Notes: a model not told the origin generated them from the sequence alone. A stretch of 64,000 bases of DNA from a virus (IMGVR_UViG_2541047759_000001); one strand, 5' to 3'; positions 51,272-62,458 are shown, counted from the first letter of the stretch. Translations and numbers: made by a program.

Positions 51272-51306
51272 TGCAACGATCGGTGTAGTTAATGGTGTAG
51301 TTAATT
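51272..51306. repeat. Island attL direct repeat
   Basis: tgcaacgatcggtgtagttaatggtgtagttaatt, repeated at 62424-62458 with one mismatch. Confidence 0.75.
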
Positions 51307-51327
51307 GTGATGACCGGAATCAAAATT

Positions 51328-52557
51328 ATGAGCAGAGCACTTAACAAACTGAGCGATACACAGCTGAGGAAAATCAACGGCACACCCGCCCAAAAAACAG
51401 CCTTTCTTAATGACGGTGGAAACCTGAGCGTCAGGCATTCAACCAGTGGCCTTTTAACCTGGTATTTCACTTACAGGGCCGGAACGGGAAGGGGGGCACC
51501 ACCGGAACGCATTAAGCTGGGAAATTATCCTGATCTGAGCCTGAAATCAGCCAGGGAAAAAGCCGCCCAGTGTCGCGCATGGCTGGCAGAGGGGAAAAAT
51601 CCACGTCATGAAATGAATTACACCGTACAGGAAGCGTTAAAGCCGGTAACGGTTGGCGATGCGCTCACCTACTGGCTTGAGTCGTACGCAAAGGAAAACC
51701 GCGTGGATTATGCCGCCCTGAAAAAGCGCCTTAATAATCACGTAATACAGCACATTGGTGCTATGCCGCTGGATAAATGCGAGCTACGGCACTGGCTGGC
51801 CTGTTTTGACCAGGTGGCAAAGCGAACGCCTGTTACTGCCGGATTCTTGCTACAGACGTGCAAACAGGCGCTTAAGTTCTGCCGGAGGCGGCGCTATGCA
51901 ATCAGCAACGTTCTTGATGATATGAGTGTGGCGGACGTTGGGAAAAAACCGGATATAAGCGAGCGCGTCTTAAGCACCAAAGAACTTGGCGAATTATTGC
52001 AGGCACTGGACAAAAAAATATTTTCCCCTTACTACGTCGCACTAATCCGCCTCCTGATTGTTTTCGGATGCCGGACGGTAGAACTGAGGTTATCGGAGAT
52101 CAGCGAGTGGGATTTTACCGAAATGCTCTGGACCGTGCCGAAAGAACACAGCAAAACGAAGGTGGCAATATTCCGGCCCATACCGGAAGCAATACTGCCG
52201 TTCGTCACGCAGCTGGTGGAGCAGAACAGGCACACGGGCTTATTGCTGGGGGAAGTGAAACAGGAAACAAGCGTGTCGCAGTACGGCAGATTAGCGCACA
52301 GGAGGCTAAAACACCCTCACTGGTCACTGCATGACATCCGGCGCACCTTTACAACGATGCTGAACGATTTAGGCGTGGATCCTCACGTCGTGGAGCAGCT
52401 TACAGGTCATCAGATGCCAGGGATGCAACGAGTCTATAACCATTCCCGTTATCTGGATGCGAAACGTGACGCGCTGGATATGTGGACGGAGCGGTTAGGG
52501 ATACTGGCGGGAACACATGAAAACGTAACCACATTGCCAATAGCCAGAGAAATATAA
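51328..52557 (+). CDS. int: Tyrosine integrase, P4-like (alternative starts 51307/51310)
   Basis: N-terminal DUF4102-like ...GNLSVRHSTSGLLTWYFTYR...; C-terminal HWSLHDIRRTF..MLNDLGVDPHVVEQLTGH...VYNHSRY catalytic region. Confidence 0.85.
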   Translation: MSRALNKLSDTQLRKINGTPAQKTAFLNDGGNLSVRHSTSGLLTWYFTYRAGTGRGAPPERIKLGNYPDLSLKSAREKAAQCRAWLAEGKNPRHEMNYTVQEALKPVTVGDALTYWLESYAKENRVDYAALKKRLNNHVIQHIGAMPLDKCELRHWLACFDQVAKRTPVTAGFLLQTCKQALKFCRRRRYAISNVLDDMSVADVGKKPDISERVLSTKELGELLQALDKKIFSPYYVALIRLLIVFGCRTVELRLSEISEWDFTEMLWTVPKEHSKTKVAIFRPIPEAILPFVTQLVEQNRHTGLLLGEVKQETSVSQYGRLAHRRLKHPHWSLHDIRRTFTTMLNDLGVDPHVVEQLTGHQMPGMQRVYNHSRYLDAKRDALDMWTERLGILAGTHENVTTLPIAREI

Positions 52558-52579
52558 TTTTTTTTGCGATTTTTCAGGA

Positions 52580-52640
52580 TGCGGACAACGTGAAACAACG
52601 AGACACAACGACGAACAACAAGGAACAAAATGGAACAACG
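52580..52640. repeat. Array of ACAACG direct repeats between int and alpA
   Basis: gacaacgtgaaacaacgagacacaacgacgaacaacaaggaacaaaatggaacaacg. Confidence 0.45.
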
Positions 52641-52922
52641 GGTTAAAAATCAGCCATCGTAATAACCATTTGATTTTTATAGGTGTACTGTTTTTTTATA
52701 CACTGGCGAATCACTCTTAAAAATATGTAAAAAAGGCGTAAAAGTAAAATTTTATGCCTTTGCATCATAATGAATTAAAAGAGTTTTTATTCTCATTTCC
52801 CCTGCTTCTGTAAAACGACCGCCGCCAGTGTTTGCCATTCCACAAACACCCTGACACAATCCGACACAACCCAACCCAATAATCCACCCAATGACTCTTT
52901 AAGAAACAACAAAGGGGGAATT

Positions 52923-53111
52923 GTGTTAAGCACAGATCGCTTTATACGTGAAAAAGAATGTCAGCAACTTACAGGCCTGAGCCGCTCATGTCGGTACCGC
53001 CTGGAAAAAGCCGGACAATTCCCATCACGGCGTAAGCTGGGCGGTCGTTTCGTTGGCTGGTCTTTATCCGAAGTTCTGGCATGGAAGGACAGCTGCGAGG
53101 CAGTTCACTAA
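52923..53111 (+). CDS. alpA: AlpA-family transcriptional regulator
   Basis: 62 aa, ...LTGLSRSCRYRLEKAGQFPSRRKLGGRFVGWSLSEVLAW...; GTG start with GGGGGAA RBS. Confidence 0.8.
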   Translation: MLSTDRFIREKECQQLTGLSRSCRYRLEKAGQFPSRRKLGGRFVGWSLSEVLAWKDSCEAVH

Positions 53112-53163
53112 TCAGGCTGGCGGCACACAGCCGCCACCCATCCACTAATACAGAGATCTAACC

Positions 53164-60925: not shown

Positions 60926-60989
60926 TTTTCCGTGAAGGTGACACCACCACCACTTGATTAATATTTAACCATGCAGTTAAGGTAACATT

Positions 60990-61424
60990 ATGATTGATAA
61001 AGCTTGTTTTGTAAGTCAGCAGGAAATAGCTGAACATTTCAAGGTTAACAGAACCACTATTCGCGCATGGACCAAACAGGGGATGCCGTATCTTAATGCG
61101 GATCGCGGAAAGTCTGGCGGTTATCACATCGGGCATACATTGCTTTGGTCTTCAGGTAAAAGCCGTCTTGAGGCCATCAGATATCACGTAGAAACCAGTG
61201 CGCTGGAAAAAATTATGTTTGCCAGGCTGCTTTCATCTGAGCGTGACGAGTACTCCAGTGAAGAAACAGAACATCGATTTGATGAAGGTTTGCAGATTTA
61301 CGGCTATTCACCGGAAGATGTGAGCAAGGCACGAAATAAAATGGCTGGCTTTCTGGCTGGGTGGCGTCATGCCGTAAGCGTTCGCCGTGCCAGCATGGAG
61401 CAATCAGCCGATACAGAACAGTAA
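60990..61424 (+). CDS. Terminase small-subunit-like protein with Nu1-type N-terminal HTH and unrelated C-terminus
   Basis: ...QQEIAEHFKVNRTTIRAWTKQGMPYLNADRGKSGG... parallels the recalled lambda Nu1 N-terminus (..LADIFGASIRTIQNWQEQGMPVLRGGGKG..); C-terminus lacks the gpA-interacting motif seen in the prophage Nu1. Confidence 0.6.
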   Translation: MIDKACFVSQQEIAEHFKVNRTTIRAWTKQGMPYLNADRGKSGGYHIGHTLLWSSGKSRLEAIRYHVETSALEKIMFARLLSSERDEYSSEETEHRFDEGLQIYGYSPEDVSKARNKMAGFLAGWRHAVSVRRASMEQSADTEQ

Positions 61425-61469
61425 AGCCGATAACTTGTTAATCACTCGCAGCAATGCATGTGATTTGTG

Positions 61470-61670
61470 CACACTTTCGGTTAACTGGTTCGATGTCCGG
61501 TTTTAGTGTCTGTTTTTTGCGCATGTCCGGTTCATGGAAAGCATGTTTTTATATTTTTCATATGGTTAACTTGCAGAGAAACCGGACATGGATCCCGAAA
61601 AATTTTCATAAATAGTGAAAACGCGCGAGGTCGCCGCCCCGTAACGGGCCATAATTCCAGGAAGGACCCG
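61470..61670 (-). other. Island cos site copy 2 (inverted): cosN (61628-61639) plus phage-like cosB with ATGTCCGG repeats
   Basis: Reverse complement matches prophage 21905-22070 over cosN and the ccatgtccggtttctct.caagttaac.atatgaaaaat region. Confidence 0.75.
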
Positions 61671-61703
61671 ACGACACCAGACTATCAGAACGATGGGGGC
61701 ACA

Positions 61704-61985
61704 ATGACAGAAGCCGAAATACTGCGATTAATCCGCCGCGTTGCCGGAATCAGCCAGCAGGCCGACGAACAGACCACGCAGCCGGACAGCGTGACCGCCG
61801 AAAATTATGTTCGTGTGGTTGCTGAGGTGATTCGCCGTAATGGTATCCAGCTTAATGATGTGGATATGCGCAACATACGGATCCGCGTTCTTGAAATGCT
61901 GGCCTACAATCGCCGCGTGGCACTGTATCGGGAAACGGAGAAAATTACGTACCACTGGAAGAAGCCGGAGCGGTTGCGGCGGTAA
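61704..61985 (+). CDS. Hypothetical protein (last island gene)
   Basis: ATG 61704; 93 aa. Confidence 0.4.
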   Translation: MTEAEILRLIRRVAGISQQADEQTTQPDSVTAENYVRVVAEVIRRNGIQLNDVDMRNIRIRVLEMLAYNRRVALYRETEKITYHWKKPERLRR

Positions 61986-62423
61986 CTGGTTGATATTTTC
62001 GAAATTCGCCAGCGGCGAACATCGGGGAAACCAGCCTAACCCGTTGATATTTTCGGGAACCTCAAATTGAAGAGGTCGGAAACATAACCCGTCATATTCT
62101 GGATGCTGATAATTACCACGCAGCCCATTAAGGCCTAACCCGTTGATTCTTCCACAATCCCCCATTGGGGGAGGCTGGGCGGCCTGCTGTGGGCTTTTCC
62201 ACCATTGGTGGAAAGGCGCACATCTGGATCATCATTACGGTGATCAAGGGTATGTAAAACCCACCAGCCTGATTGACATTTAACCGGAAAAAAGCCAGGT
62301 AGCCCCGTTATGGGGATCCCCATATCGACATTAACGCCCCTCATGAATTGGCGCGCTTCCCCCTGGAAAGATGACCCGCCTGTATATTTCTTGTGTCTAT
62401 TTGTTCCACGTTGTTTCATACAG

Positions 62424-62458
62424 TGCAACGATCGGTGTAGTTAATGGTGTAGTCAATT
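62424..62458. repeat. Island attR direct repeat
   Basis: tgcaacgatcggtgtagttaatggtgtagtcaatt; matches 51272-51306. Confidence 0.75.

What the first reader, a model, noticed from the sequence alone, without database searches (positions are those of the whole stretch)
51272..62458. Complete PICI-like satellite between roxA and phoQ, bounded by 35-bp direct repeats
The repeat tgcaacgatcggtgtagttaatggtgtag(t/c)taatt occurs at 51272-51306 and 62424-62458 and brackets int, alpA, a small-gene operon, primase, iteron origin, SSB-like gene, capsid module and packaging module. This looks like an intact, potentially mobile element inserted in the roxA-phoQ intergenic region, upstream of the phoPQ virulence regulator.
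Basis: seen in the sequence. Interest (0 to 1): 0.7.

Follow-up and report, generated by a model that had tools for sequence, protein, structure and literature searches.

The report
Known phage satellite, boundaries misplaced
This is a close copy of EcCICFT073, an already well-studied E. coli phage satellite island; the 35-bp repeats are real, but they lie inside the island and most likely are docking sites for its integrase, while the true ends are a 10-bp repeat further out.

Summary
The 35-bp direct repeat is real (51272-51306 and 62424-62458, one mismatch) and far beyond chance. It does not bound the element. About 89% of 5,426 complete E. coli genomes have an empty roxA-phoQ site. Homology to those sites breaks at a 10-bp core, GGACATATTT, at 51147-51156 and 62532-62541. 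No genome has an empty site carrying one copy of the 35-bp repeat. The island is therefore 11,385 bp, and the repeats lie inside it, 115 nt and 73 nt from the core.

Each repeat holds two tandem 12-mers, GGTGTAGTTAAT. The same module sits at the same distances in related islands that use three other cores. Its sequence changes together with the arm-binding N-terminal domain of the integrase. It is best read as an arm-type integrase binding site.

The island is a 97.5%-identical relative of EcCICFT073, the experimentally characterised prototype of Gram-negative phage-inducible chromosomal islands (PICIs), at the same published att site. It has int, alpA, rgdR, pri-rep, an iteron origin, ssb, capsid-like and decoration-like genes, cos1, rppA and an inverted cos2. 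perC is missing. It lies 3' of phoQ, not upstream of phoPQ. Already known; low interest.

The parts
51147..51156 (+). attL copy of the true crossover core GGACATATTT (left end of the island)
   Evidence: Homology to empty-site genomes stops at 51156 (query 1-110 of 51047-51346). The alignment with the NC101 and J53 empty sites shows the same break. The core matches the published EcCICFT073 att core.
51157..51327 (+). P' arm of attP, between the core and int. It holds a phased TTGT array (51239-51272) and the left 35-bp repeat.
   Evidence: This stretch is absent from empty sites. It is conserved at 94.6% in EcCI042, which uses another locus and core. Phased TTGT(N6)x3 matches occur only inside the island: 7 hits against 0.01 expected.
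51272..51306 (+). Left 35-bp repeat: TGCAACGATC plus two tandem 12-mers GGTGTAGTTAAT (51282-51305). Candidate arm-type Int binding sites, 21 nt upstream of the int ATG.
   Evidence: Internal position shown. Covariation with the Int N-domain shown.
51328..52557 (+). int, a tyrosine integrase of 409 aa with an N-terminal arm-DNA-binding domain
   Evidence: Pfam Arm-DNA-bind_3 (E=5e-18), Phage_integrase (E=6e-17) and a sub-threshold match to Phage_int_M. 405 of 409 residues identical to EcCICFT073 Int.
52585..52638 (-). Array of six phased 10-bp TTGT repeats in the int-alpA intergenic region. Candidate AlpA or regulator binding array.
52923..53111 (+). alpA, the activator of the island cycle and probable excision factor
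   Evidence: Pfam Phage_AlpA E=3e-17. Same RefSeq protein (WP_000953274.1) as in CFT073. Function shown for EcCICFT073 in PMC6092414.
53640..55336 (.). Small-gene block. Two minus-strand genes (53640-53813; YlcI/YnfO-like 53871-54050), then on the plus strand an Icd-like gene (54250-54450) and ORFs at 54447-54677, 54667-55101 and 55103-55336.
   Evidence: RefSeq annotation of the 100%-identical HM670 locus. PHROG hits. No defence-system hits.
55342..55641 (+). rgdR (DUF4222, 99 aa, RGD motif at residues 20-22), an accessory regulator of type III secretion and motility
   Evidence: Pfam DUF4222 E=2.5e-24. 90% identical to CFT073 C1493. C1493 is named as the RgdR orthologue in PMC3378721. RGD motif seen.
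55638..57392 (+). pri-rep, the primase/helicase replication initiator (584 aa)
   Evidence: Pfam D5_N, DUF5906 and Pox_D5. 578 of 584 residues identical to the EcCICFT073 protein.
57384..57640 (.). Replication origin: ten CTRTCTACC iterons, five on each strand (57406-57633), with an AT-rich stretch at about 57424-57462 inside the array
   Evidence: Organisation as published for E. coli PICIs (PMC6092414 Fig. 2).
57681..58378 (+). 92-aa gene (phrog_1231) and ssb (57956-58378)
   Evidence: Pfam SSB E=5e-15; PHROG hit
58794..60828 (+). Capsid-like module: a 68-aa ORF, a lambda gpE-like major capsid homologue (59000-60055), a gpD-like decoration homologue (60067-60402) and a 137-aa protein resembling the C-terminal part of a head protease/scaffold (60415-60828)
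   Evidence: Pfam Phage_cap_E E=2e-52 and HDPD E=2.5e-17. phrog_1999 and phrog_53. These correspond to c1499 and c1500 of EcCICFT073, whose deletion changed neither transfer nor interference.
60854..60989 (+). cos1: lambda-type cosQ/cosN (cosN GGGCGGCGACCT at 60889-60900) with an island-specific cosB
   Evidence: 94% identical to the published CFT073 cos.1. Alignment with the prophage cos shows identity only around cosN.
60990..61424 (+). rppA (redirecting phage packaging protein, 144 aa)
   Evidence: PDB 6hlk RppC E=5e-31. Same RefSeq protein (WP_000565609.1) as CFT073. c1503 is RppA.
61470..61669 (-). cos2, an inverted second cos site (cosN at 61628-61639) carrying a phage-type cosB
   Evidence: Inverted repeat I1 with cos1. 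Matches the published CFT073 cos.2. 87% identical over 153 nt to the cos of the neighbouring potB prophage. 93% identical over 179 nt to PhiR12 phages.
61704..61985 (+). Last annotated gene (93 aa, phrog_1561)
61986..62531 (+). Right-end non-coding region and P arm. It holds three WATCAACNGGTTA motifs (61983-62148), a phased TTGT array (62391-62414), the right 35-bp repeat, and an IHF-consensus site (62500-62512) between the repeat and the core.
   Evidence: Conserved in EcCI042. No RNA family and no unusual fold.
62424..62458 (+). Right 35-bp repeat: two tandem 12-mers at 62434-62457, 74 nt from the attR core. Candidate arm-type Int binding sites.
62532..62541 (+). attR copy of the core GGACATATTT. 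It overlaps the last two bases of the phoQ stop codon.

Best explanation
The region is an 11,385-bp phage-inducible chromosomal island (PICI) of the classical enterobacterial type. It is a close variant of EcCICFT073, integrated by its own tyrosine integrase at the 10-bp core GGACATATTT that overlaps the 3' end of phoQ. Its expected life cycle is the one shown experimentally for EcCICFT073. A lambdoid helper phage turns on alpA. AlpA activates the island genes and, with Int, excision. Pri-Rep replicates the circle from the iteron origin. RppA pairs with the helper's small terminase so that the complex cuts and packages island DNA at cos1 instead of phage DNA. Each is a pair of tandem 12-mers, most probably bound by the N-terminal arm-binding domain of Int to build the recombination complex. 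The left pair sits 21 nt upstream of the int start codon and could also auto-regulate int. The adjacent phased TTGT repeats may bind AlpA. Shown here: boundaries, gene content, near-identity to the prototype, the internal position of the repeats, and their covariation with the Int N-domain. Taken from the literature on the 97.5%-identical element: induction, excision, replication and Rpp-directed packaging. Inferred: protein binding to the 12-mers and to the TTGT arrays.
For: Identity: 97.5% identity over 97% of the region to CFT073 at the same locus, and 100% to HM670. EcCICFT073 is listed at AE014075 1377749-1389210, att core GGACATATTT, ycfD-phoQ. Int is 405/409 identical, Pri-Rep 578/584, and the AlpA and RppA RefSeq accessions are the same. 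An RppC structural homologue scores E=5e-31. cos1 is 94% identical to the published sequence, and cos2 is present. The origin has ten iterons. Boundaries: empty sites in NC101 and J53 and in about 89% of genomes end homology at the core. 0 of 5,426 genomes keep a single 35-bp copy. Arm-site reading: Int has Pfam Arm-DNA-bind_3. The same TTGT-array-plus-tandem-12-mer module lies about 125-140 nt from the core on the int side and about 72-86 nt on the far side in EcCI042 (core ATAACAGCA, in tqsA), and about 126 and 72 nt in EcCIIHE3034 (core ATGATAGTTAT, cspD-clpS). The same module pair is present in EcCIDI14, which sits inside an IS110 gene and whose core I did not pin down. In EcCI042 the 12-mers on both arms changed together to GGTGTAGTCACT (one copy GGTGTAGTCATT). 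Its Int differs at 17-18 of the first 60 residues (one of the 18 counted by the script is a GTG start-codon translation artefact) but at only 20 of the other 349 (Fisher p=3e-7). The segment RHSTSGLL becomes KYLTSGKL in EcCI042. The more distant IHE3034 Int (76% identical) keeps RHSTSGLL and keeps the 12-mer. An IHF consensus lies between the right 12-mers and the core. Phased TTGT arrays occur only in the island: 7 hits against 0.01 expected. AlpA autoactivation and AlpA-driven excision are published.
Against: No binding experiment exists for the 12-mers or the TTGT arrays. The covariation rests on one contrasting element (EcCI042) plus three conserving ones. Promoter scans near int and alpA were not above chance. 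Mobility of this particular copy is inferred from sequence identity only. perC is absent, and one ORF is fused relative to CFT073. The helper in CFT073 (prophage 4) is not in the window. The neighbouring potB prophage corresponds by gene content and map order to a CFT073 prophage whose deletion did not affect transfer.
Confidence: 0.85

Rival explanations
1. One reading: the 35-bp repeats are attL and attR. They would be the duplicated target or crossover sequence, so the element would run from 51272 to 62458, and excision would leave one 35-bp copy between roxA and phoQ.
For: It is the longest direct repeat flanking the gene set. The same kind of tandem repeat is listed as the 'att site core' for some other PICIs in PMC6092414 Table S1, for example CGGTGTAGTTAATGGTGTAGTTAATT for EcCIDI14.
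Against: 0 of 5,426 genomes contain the predicted empty site. Real empty sites lack both the repeat and the 115 nt and 73 nt outside it. Homology breaks at the 10-bp core. The same repeats occur in islands at tqsA, at cspD-clpS and inside an IS110 gene, where the host gene is split well outside the repeats.
Confidence: 0.02
2. Nested elements: the outer 115-nt and 73-nt segments are a remnant 'landing pad' left by an older element at GGACATATTT. The present island would have integrated into it through the 35-bp sequence.
For: The sequence to the left of each 35-bp copy is also similar (75 nt at 79%). That could suggest a duplicated older att region.
Against: The landing pad alone is never seen in any genome. 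The outer segments travel with the island to three other loci, at the same distances in the two whose cores are defined. An int-attP plasmid of EcCICFT073 integrates into a naive K-12 strain.
Confidence: 0.03
3. The repeats are binding sites for a protein other than Int. Candidates are AlpA acting as excision factor, or a helper-phage or host regulator. They might also act mainly as an operator controlling int transcription rather than in synapsis.
For: The left copy ends 21 nt before the int start codon. AlpA-family proteins bind phased direct repeats. TTGT arrays lie directly next to the repeats and also upstream of alpA.
Against: The 12-mer covaries with the Int N-domain. By contrast, the alpA-proximal and arm TTGT arrays are nearly unchanged between this island and EcCI042. 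The 12-mer is not found in the alpA promoter region that AlpA is known to activate.
Confidence: 0.1

Closest known systems
EcCICFT073, the prototype Gram-negative PICI of E. coli CFT073 (Fillol-Salom et al. 2018, PMC6092414; 2019, PMC6739421)
   Same: Same locus and att core (ycfD/roxA-phoQ, GGACATATTT). Same gene order. 97.5% nucleotide identity. AlpA and RppA proteins are identical, and Int and Pri-Rep are 99% identical. The same iteron origin, cos1 and inverted cos2 are present.
   Different: A 331-bp segment (58261-58591) replaces the 417-bp CFT073 segment that holds the end of ssb and perC, so perC is absent. One 144-aa ORF (54667-55101) corresponds to two 73-aa ORFs in CFT073. RgdR is 90% identical.
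EcCIEDL933 / O-island 51, a capsid-forming PICI (cf-PICI; bioRxiv 10.1101/2022.09.08.507074)
   Same: The paper states that int, alpA and rep are identical to those of the EcCICFT073 type. O157:H7 genomes carry the same left junction and the same right end, including the 35-bp repeat, at roxA-phoQ.
   Different: [quoted passage not shown] Here only gpE-like and gpD-like genes and a scaffold-like ORF are present, and packaging relies on Rpp plus cos.
Satellite phage P4
   Same: P4-family integrase with an arm-binding domain, an AlpA/Vis-type regulator, a D5-type primase-helicase, carriage of the helper's cos, and dependence on a helper.
   Different: No Sid, Psu or Delta hits. cosN is lambda-type, not P2-type. 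There are no plasmid-state functions. The authors of PMC6092414 argue for separate lineages.
Arm-type integrase sites of lambda-family attP (P and P' arms, with IHF and Xis sites)
   Same: Short repeated motifs distinct from the core lie on both sides of the core inside the element. The integrase has a separate N-terminal arm-binding domain. An IHF consensus sits between arm and core, and phased repeats that could bind the excision factor are adjacent.
   Different: Here each arm carries one tandem pair in the same orientation, with a TTGT array on both arms. No binding has been demonstrated.

Membership tests
Classical enterobacterial PICI (EcCICFT073 type) | Island of about 8-12 kb at a dedicated att site, flanked by a short duplicated core, with empty sites in other strains | tested here: met
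   11,385 bp between the two copies of GGACATATTT. Empty sites in about 89% of 5,426 genomes.
Classical enterobacterial PICI (EcCICFT073 type) | int followed by alpA, with the main operon transcribed rightward | tested here: met
   Pfam hits and the RefSeq map.
Classical enterobacterial PICI (EcCICFT073 type) | pri-rep gene followed immediately by an iteron origin with an AT-rich stretch | tested here: met
Classical enterobacterial PICI (EcCICFT073 type) | No lysis, tail or large-terminase genes | tested here: met
   No such Pfam or PHROG hits among the annotated and long ORFs scanned.
Classical enterobacterial PICI (EcCICFT073 type) | Helper-type cos site plus an Rpp protein that redirects the helper's small terminase | tested here: met
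   Homologue of RppC (PDB 6hlk) at E=5e-31, and a protein identical to CFT073 c1503 (RppA). cos1 and cos2 are present.
Classical enterobacterial PICI (EcCICFT073 type) | Helper-phage-dependent induction, excision, replication and high-frequency transfer, with interference against the helper | not testable with these tools
   Shown experimentally only for the 97.5%-identical CFT073 element.
Capsid-forming PICI (cf-PICI) | Encodes a complete capsid and packaging set: portal, protease, connectors, HNH, TerS and TerL | tested here: not met
   Only gpE-like, gpD-like and scaffold-like ORFs were found. There is no portal, protease, HNH or TerL hit.
P4-like satellite | Sid, Psu and Delta capsid-size and transactivation genes, and a P2-type cos | tested here: not met
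   No such hits. cosN is the lambda-type GGGCGGCGACCT.
att crossover core (applied to the 35-bp repeat) | Exactly one copy remains at the empty chromosomal site | tested here: not met
   Empty sites have no 12-mer match at up to 2 mismatches. 0 of 5,426 genomes match the predicted empty site.
Arm-type integrase binding sites (applied to the 35-bp repeat) | Lie inside the element on both sides of the core and differ in sequence from the core | tested here: met
   115 nt and 73 nt from the core.
Arm-type integrase binding sites (applied to the 35-bp repeat) | The integrase carries a separate arm-binding N-terminal domain | tested here: met
   Pfam Arm-DNA-bind_3, E=5e-18.
Arm-type integrase binding sites (applied to the 35-bp repeat) | The motif is kept when the core and locus change, and it covaries with the N-domain | tested here: met
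   Four elements with four loci. EcCI042 changes the 12-mer on both arms together with the N-domain. There is only one contrasting case.
Arm-type integrase binding sites (applied to the 35-bp repeat) | Direct binding by the Int N-domain, and a requirement for integration or excision | not testable with these tools
   Needs gel-shift or footprinting assays and mutated attP integration assays.

The most novel reading that the evidence does not exclude
The [phased TTGT array + tandem 12-mer] modules form a portable arm cassette (Int arm sites plus AlpA sites) shared by E. coli PICIs that have swapped core specificity. Several 'att cores' in the published PICI table (EcCIDI14, and probably the yejM-luxR group with TTTGTAGTTATACG x2) would then be these arm repeats rather than crossover sites. 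In addition, the unexplained second cos site (cos2) copies the complete cosN+cosB of a different lambdoid phage group: the potB prophage next door and PhiR12-like phages. That would give the island an Rpp-independent packaging route with a second class of helpers, and would answer the question 'why two cos sites?' left open in the 2019 paper.
Probability: 0.4. Interest if true: 0.35.

Novelty: already known. Interest (0 to 1): 0.15.

Why it matters
It matters little beyond correct annotation. The island is a variant of the best-studied Gram-negative PICI, at its published site. Three things are useful. First, the exact ends are given (51147 and 62541), with predicted attB and attP junctions for PCR. 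Second, long terminal direct repeats in this island family are internal arm modules, not att cores, which also appears to affect some entries in the published PICI table. Third, cos2 may mimic the cos of a second helper-phage group. The island does not sit upstream of phoPQ. If it has any cis effect on a host gene, roxA is the likelier target, because it is separated from the end of phoQ by 11.4 kb.

Tried and rejected
(1) I searched a synthetic empty site carrying one 35-bp copy against 5,426 genomes. None matched, so the 35-bp att model is rejected.

(2) The search for related loci on genome contigs with Int returned only one near-identical Shigella locus. I used four named PICIs from the published table instead. 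The ED1a accession was not in the collection.

(3) The 428-aa ORF at 53164-54450 looked striking. Its middle is Cys/Ser/Arg-rich, it runs antisense to a YlcI/YnfO-family gene, and it has no tblastn hit in phages. Only its last 66 aa (Icd-like) and a short BRO-N/Ant-like N-terminal remnant match anything. I treat it as spurious.

(4) Rfam, tRNA and PADLOC scans of the island found nothing.

(5) RNA folding of the conserved right-end non-coding stretch gave z-scores near 0 on both strands, so there is no support for a structured RNA.

(6) Promoter and terminator scans were at chance level.

(7) The neighbouring prophage's small terminase has no PDB sequence hit. I could not say whether RppA would target it.

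
Full report
**1. The observation**

The sequence TGCAACGATCGGTGTAGTTAATGGTGTAG(T/C)TAATT is present at 51272-51306 and 62424-62458 with one mismatch. It is the strongest direct repeat in 50000-64000. Weaker similarity extends leftward to 75 nt at 79% identity.

Each copy consists of TGCAACGATC followed by two tandem 12-mers, GGTGTAGTTAAT. The only matches to the 12-mer with at most one mismatch in the 64-kb window are these four. A 34/35 match within 11 kb is far beyond chance.

**2. The repeats are not the ends of the element**

I searched it against 5,426 complete E. coli genomes. No genome covers 80% or more of it.

The common hit is a two-piece match spanning 644 bp in the genome, against 877 bp in the query. 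The missing 233 nt are exactly 51157-51306 plus 62459-62541.

Direct alignment with the empty sites of NC101 and J53 shows the host sequence running ...GTGAAGTAT-GGACATATTT-ATTCATC.... The 10-bp GGACATATTT is present once there (J53 has one SNP in it). In the window it is present twice, at 51147-51156 and 62532-62541.

A 300-bp probe across the left junction confirms this. 600 genomes carry the occupied junction, and the rest match only up to base 51156. Empty sites contain no 12-mer match even at two mismatches.

The island therefore spans 11,385 bp between the two core copies. The 35-bp repeats lie inside it, 115 nt from the core on the int side and 73 nt on the far side.

The attR core overlaps the last two bases of the phoQ stop codon, because phoQ is on the minus strand at 62540-64000. 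roxA starts 58 nt to the left of the attL core. The island is thus 3' of phoQ and upstream of roxA. It is not upstream of phoPQ.

**3. What the element is**

The region is 100% identical to several RefSeq genomes, for example HM670. It is 97.5% identical over 97% of its length to E. coli CFT073 at the same locus.

The literature identifies the CFT073 island as EcCICFT073. Table S1 of PMC6092414 lists it at AE014075 1377749-1389210, 11.4 kb, att core GGACATATTT, ycfD-phoQ. EcCICFT073 is the experimental prototype of Gram-negative phage-inducible chromosomal islands (PICIs).

Gene by gene:
- **int** (51328-52557): Arm-DNA-bind_3 plus the catalytic integrase domain; 405/409 identical to the CFT073 protein.
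- **alpA** (52923-53111): protein identical to CFT073.
- **Small genes**, including an Icd-like one.
- **rgdR** (55342-55641): DUF4222, RGD motif at residues 20-22, 90% identical to C1493.
- **pri-rep** (55638-57392): 578/584 identical.
- **Origin** (57406-57633): ten CTRTCTACC iterons with an AT-rich stretch.
- **ssb.**
- **Capsid-like genes**: a lambda gpE-like gene and a gpD-like gene, plus a scaffold-like ORF.
- **cos1** (60854-60989): cosN GGGCGGCGACCT.
- **rppA** (60990-61424): PDB RppC E=5e-31; protein identical to c1503.
- **cos2** (61470-61669, minus strand): inverted relative to cos1.

There is no portal, protease, large terminase, HNH, tail or lysis gene. It is therefore a classical PICI, not a capsid-forming one.

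Relative to CFT073, one segment (58261-58591) is replaced and perC is absent. One ORF (54667-55101) is a fusion of two CFT073 ORFs.

**4. How it works**

For EcCICFT073, the papers show several things:
- Spontaneous excision and circularisation occur, and int-attP-dependent integration works.
- Transfer requires int, alpA and a helper prophage. Lambda and phi80 also serve as helpers.
- AlpA activates its own promoter, and its overexpression triggers excision and runaway replication.
- pri-rep plus ori form a functional replicon.
- cos1 is needed for lambda- and phi80-mediated transfer.
- RppA binds the helper's small terminase, blocks phage packaging, and redirects it to cos1.
- Deleting the capsid-like or decoration-like gene changed neither transfer nor interference.

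Every one of these parts is intact here at 99-100% protein identity. I therefore infer the same life cycle for this copy, but I did not and cannot test it.

**5. What the 35-bp repeats are**

In the circular form they flank the core in this order: far arm (phased TTGT array, 10-nt spacer, two 12-mers, 74 nt containing an IHF consensus at 62500-62512), then the core, then 125 nt, then a TTGT array, the spacer and two 12-mers, then 21 nt, then the int ATG.

The same module is found at the same distances in two islands that use other loci and cores. EcCI042 has core ATAACAGCA and splits tqsA. EcCIIHE3034 has core ATGATAGTTAT and sits between cspD and clpS. EcCIDI14 carries the same module pair, but its core was not pinned down. 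There the IS110 transposase gene is split at about 633 and 11447 of locus L009, well outside the repeats at 749-773 and 11365-11389.

Keeping the module while the core changes is what arm-type sites should do, and what crossover sites should not do.

In EcCI042 the 12-mers on both arms have changed together to GGTGTAGTCACT (one copy GGTGTAGTCATT). Its integrase is 91% identical overall. It differs at 17-18 of the first 60 residues but at only 20 of the remaining 349 (Fisher p=3e-7). One of the 18 differences the script counted is a start-codon translation artefact.

The segment RHSTSGLL becomes KYLTSGKL in EcCI042. The more distant IHE3034 integrase (76% identical) keeps RHSTSGLL and keeps the 12-mer.

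I conclude that the repeats are arm-type Int binding sites, with about 75% confidence. This is an inference, since no binding data exist.

The adjacent 10-bp-phased TTGT repeats occur seven times as triplets in the window, and all seven are inside the island: on both arms, and as a six-unit array just downstream of int. The chance expectation is 0.01. A related pair lies 43-77 nt upstream of alpA.

AlpA autoactivates its promoter and drives excision. These arrays are therefore plausible AlpA sites, but with lower confidence, about 45%.

**6. Comparison and novelty**

The element passes every sequence-testable criterion for a classical enterobacterial PICI. It fails those for cf-PICIs and for P4-like satellites. 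It is a minor variant of the prototype and is already present in RefSeq, so it is already known.

The arm-site reading is, as far as two full-text searches show, not described for PICIs. It is nevertheless the expected architecture for an integrase of this kind.

**7. Side observations**

- **Neighbouring prophage.** Window bases 1 to about 46,400 are a lambdoid prophage inserted in potB. It has the same terminase and head proteins as the CFT073 potB prophage.
- **cos2 matches that prophage.** The prophage's cos region (cosN at 21912) matches the island's cos2 through cosN and about 150 nt of cosB, at 87% over 153 nt. cos1 matches it only around cosN. PhiR12-type phages carry the same cos region at 93% over 179 nt. 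The published helper phi4 has a different cosB. The 2019 paper explicitly left open why some PICIs have two cos sites. A second helper class is a testable answer, with a caveat. By gene content and map order, the potB prophage appears to be the CFT073 prophage whose deletion did not affect transfer. I did not confirm which numbered prophage it is.
- **Published att cores.** Table S1 of PMC6092414 lists the tandem 12-mer itself as the 'att core' of EcCIDI14, and a similar tandem repeat for the yejM-luxR islands. I did not check the yejM-luxR group.

**Verdict**

The repeat is real, the satellite is real and apparently intact, and the boundaries and the phoPQ orientation were misread. The element is already known. 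Interest 0.15.

Noticed in passing
window 61470-61669 (minus strand) compared with window 21906-22058: The island's second, inverted cos site (cos2) matches the cos of the neighbouring potB lambdoid prophage through cosN and about 150 nt of cosB, at 87% over 153 nt. It also matches PhiR12-type phages at 93% over 179 nt. cos1 shares only the cosQ/cosN part. This may explain why the island has two cos sites, namely a second helper class, a question left open in PMC6739421.
   Followed up: partly
window 1 to about 46400: A lambda-like prophage is inserted in potB. It has int at the left end, a Nu1-type small terminase at 22107-22616, and head and tail genes. In the RefSeq annotation of HM670, which is 100% identical over window 50800-63000, several tail genes are flagged as frameshifted. 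Its terminase and head proteins are the same as in the CFT073 potB prophage, which appears not to be the EcCICFT073 helper.
   Followed up: partly
L009 (E. coli clone D i14) 749-773 and 11365-11389; PMC6092414 Table S1: The published 'att site core' of EcCIDI14 (CGGTGTAGTTAATGGTGTAGTTAATT) is the same tandem 12-mer arm repeat. The IS110 transposase gene that the island interrupts is split at about 633 and 11447, outside the repeats. The cores listed for the yejM-luxR PICIs (TTTGTAGTTATACG x2) may be arm repeats as well.
   Followed up: partly
window 51239-51272 (+), 62391-62414 (+), 52585-52638 (-), 52846-52880: Arrays of 10-bp-phased TTGT repeats occur only inside the island: 7 triplet hits against 0.01 expected. 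They lie on both att arms next to the 12-mers, just downstream of int, and upstream of alpA. They are candidate AlpA binding arrays.
   Followed up: partly
window 53164-54450 (+): A 428-aa open frame runs from just after alpA into the Icd-like gene, antisense to two annotated small genes. Its middle is Cys/Ser/Arg-rich with no homologues. Only a short BRO-N/Ant-like remnant (residues 49-84) and the Icd-like C-terminus match anything. It is probably not a real protein.
   Followed up: partly
window 58261-58591: A 331-bp segment replaces the 417-bp CFT073 segment that carries the 3' end of ssb and the perC regulator gene. This island therefore lacks perC but keeps rgdR.
   Followed up: yes
window 51088-51156 and 62532-62542: The att core overlaps the last two bases of the phoQ stop codon. 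In empty-site strains roxA starts only 75 nt after phoQ. The island pushes them 11.4 kb apart and replaces everything beyond 58 nt upstream of roxA with island DNA, which might affect roxA expression.
   Followed up: no
window 61983-61995, 62037-62049, 62136-62148 (-): There are three copies of a WATCAACNGGTTA-containing motif (about 20-27 nt, TAACCCGTTGATATTTTCG-like) in the gene-free right end of the island. The same motif is also repeated three times in EcCIIHE3034. The copies match the IHF consensus, and their function is unknown.
   Followed up: no
window 54667-55101 (+): A 144-aa ORF (phrog_2512) corresponds to two separate 73-aa ORFs in CFT073. This is either a fusion here or a split there.
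   Followed up: no
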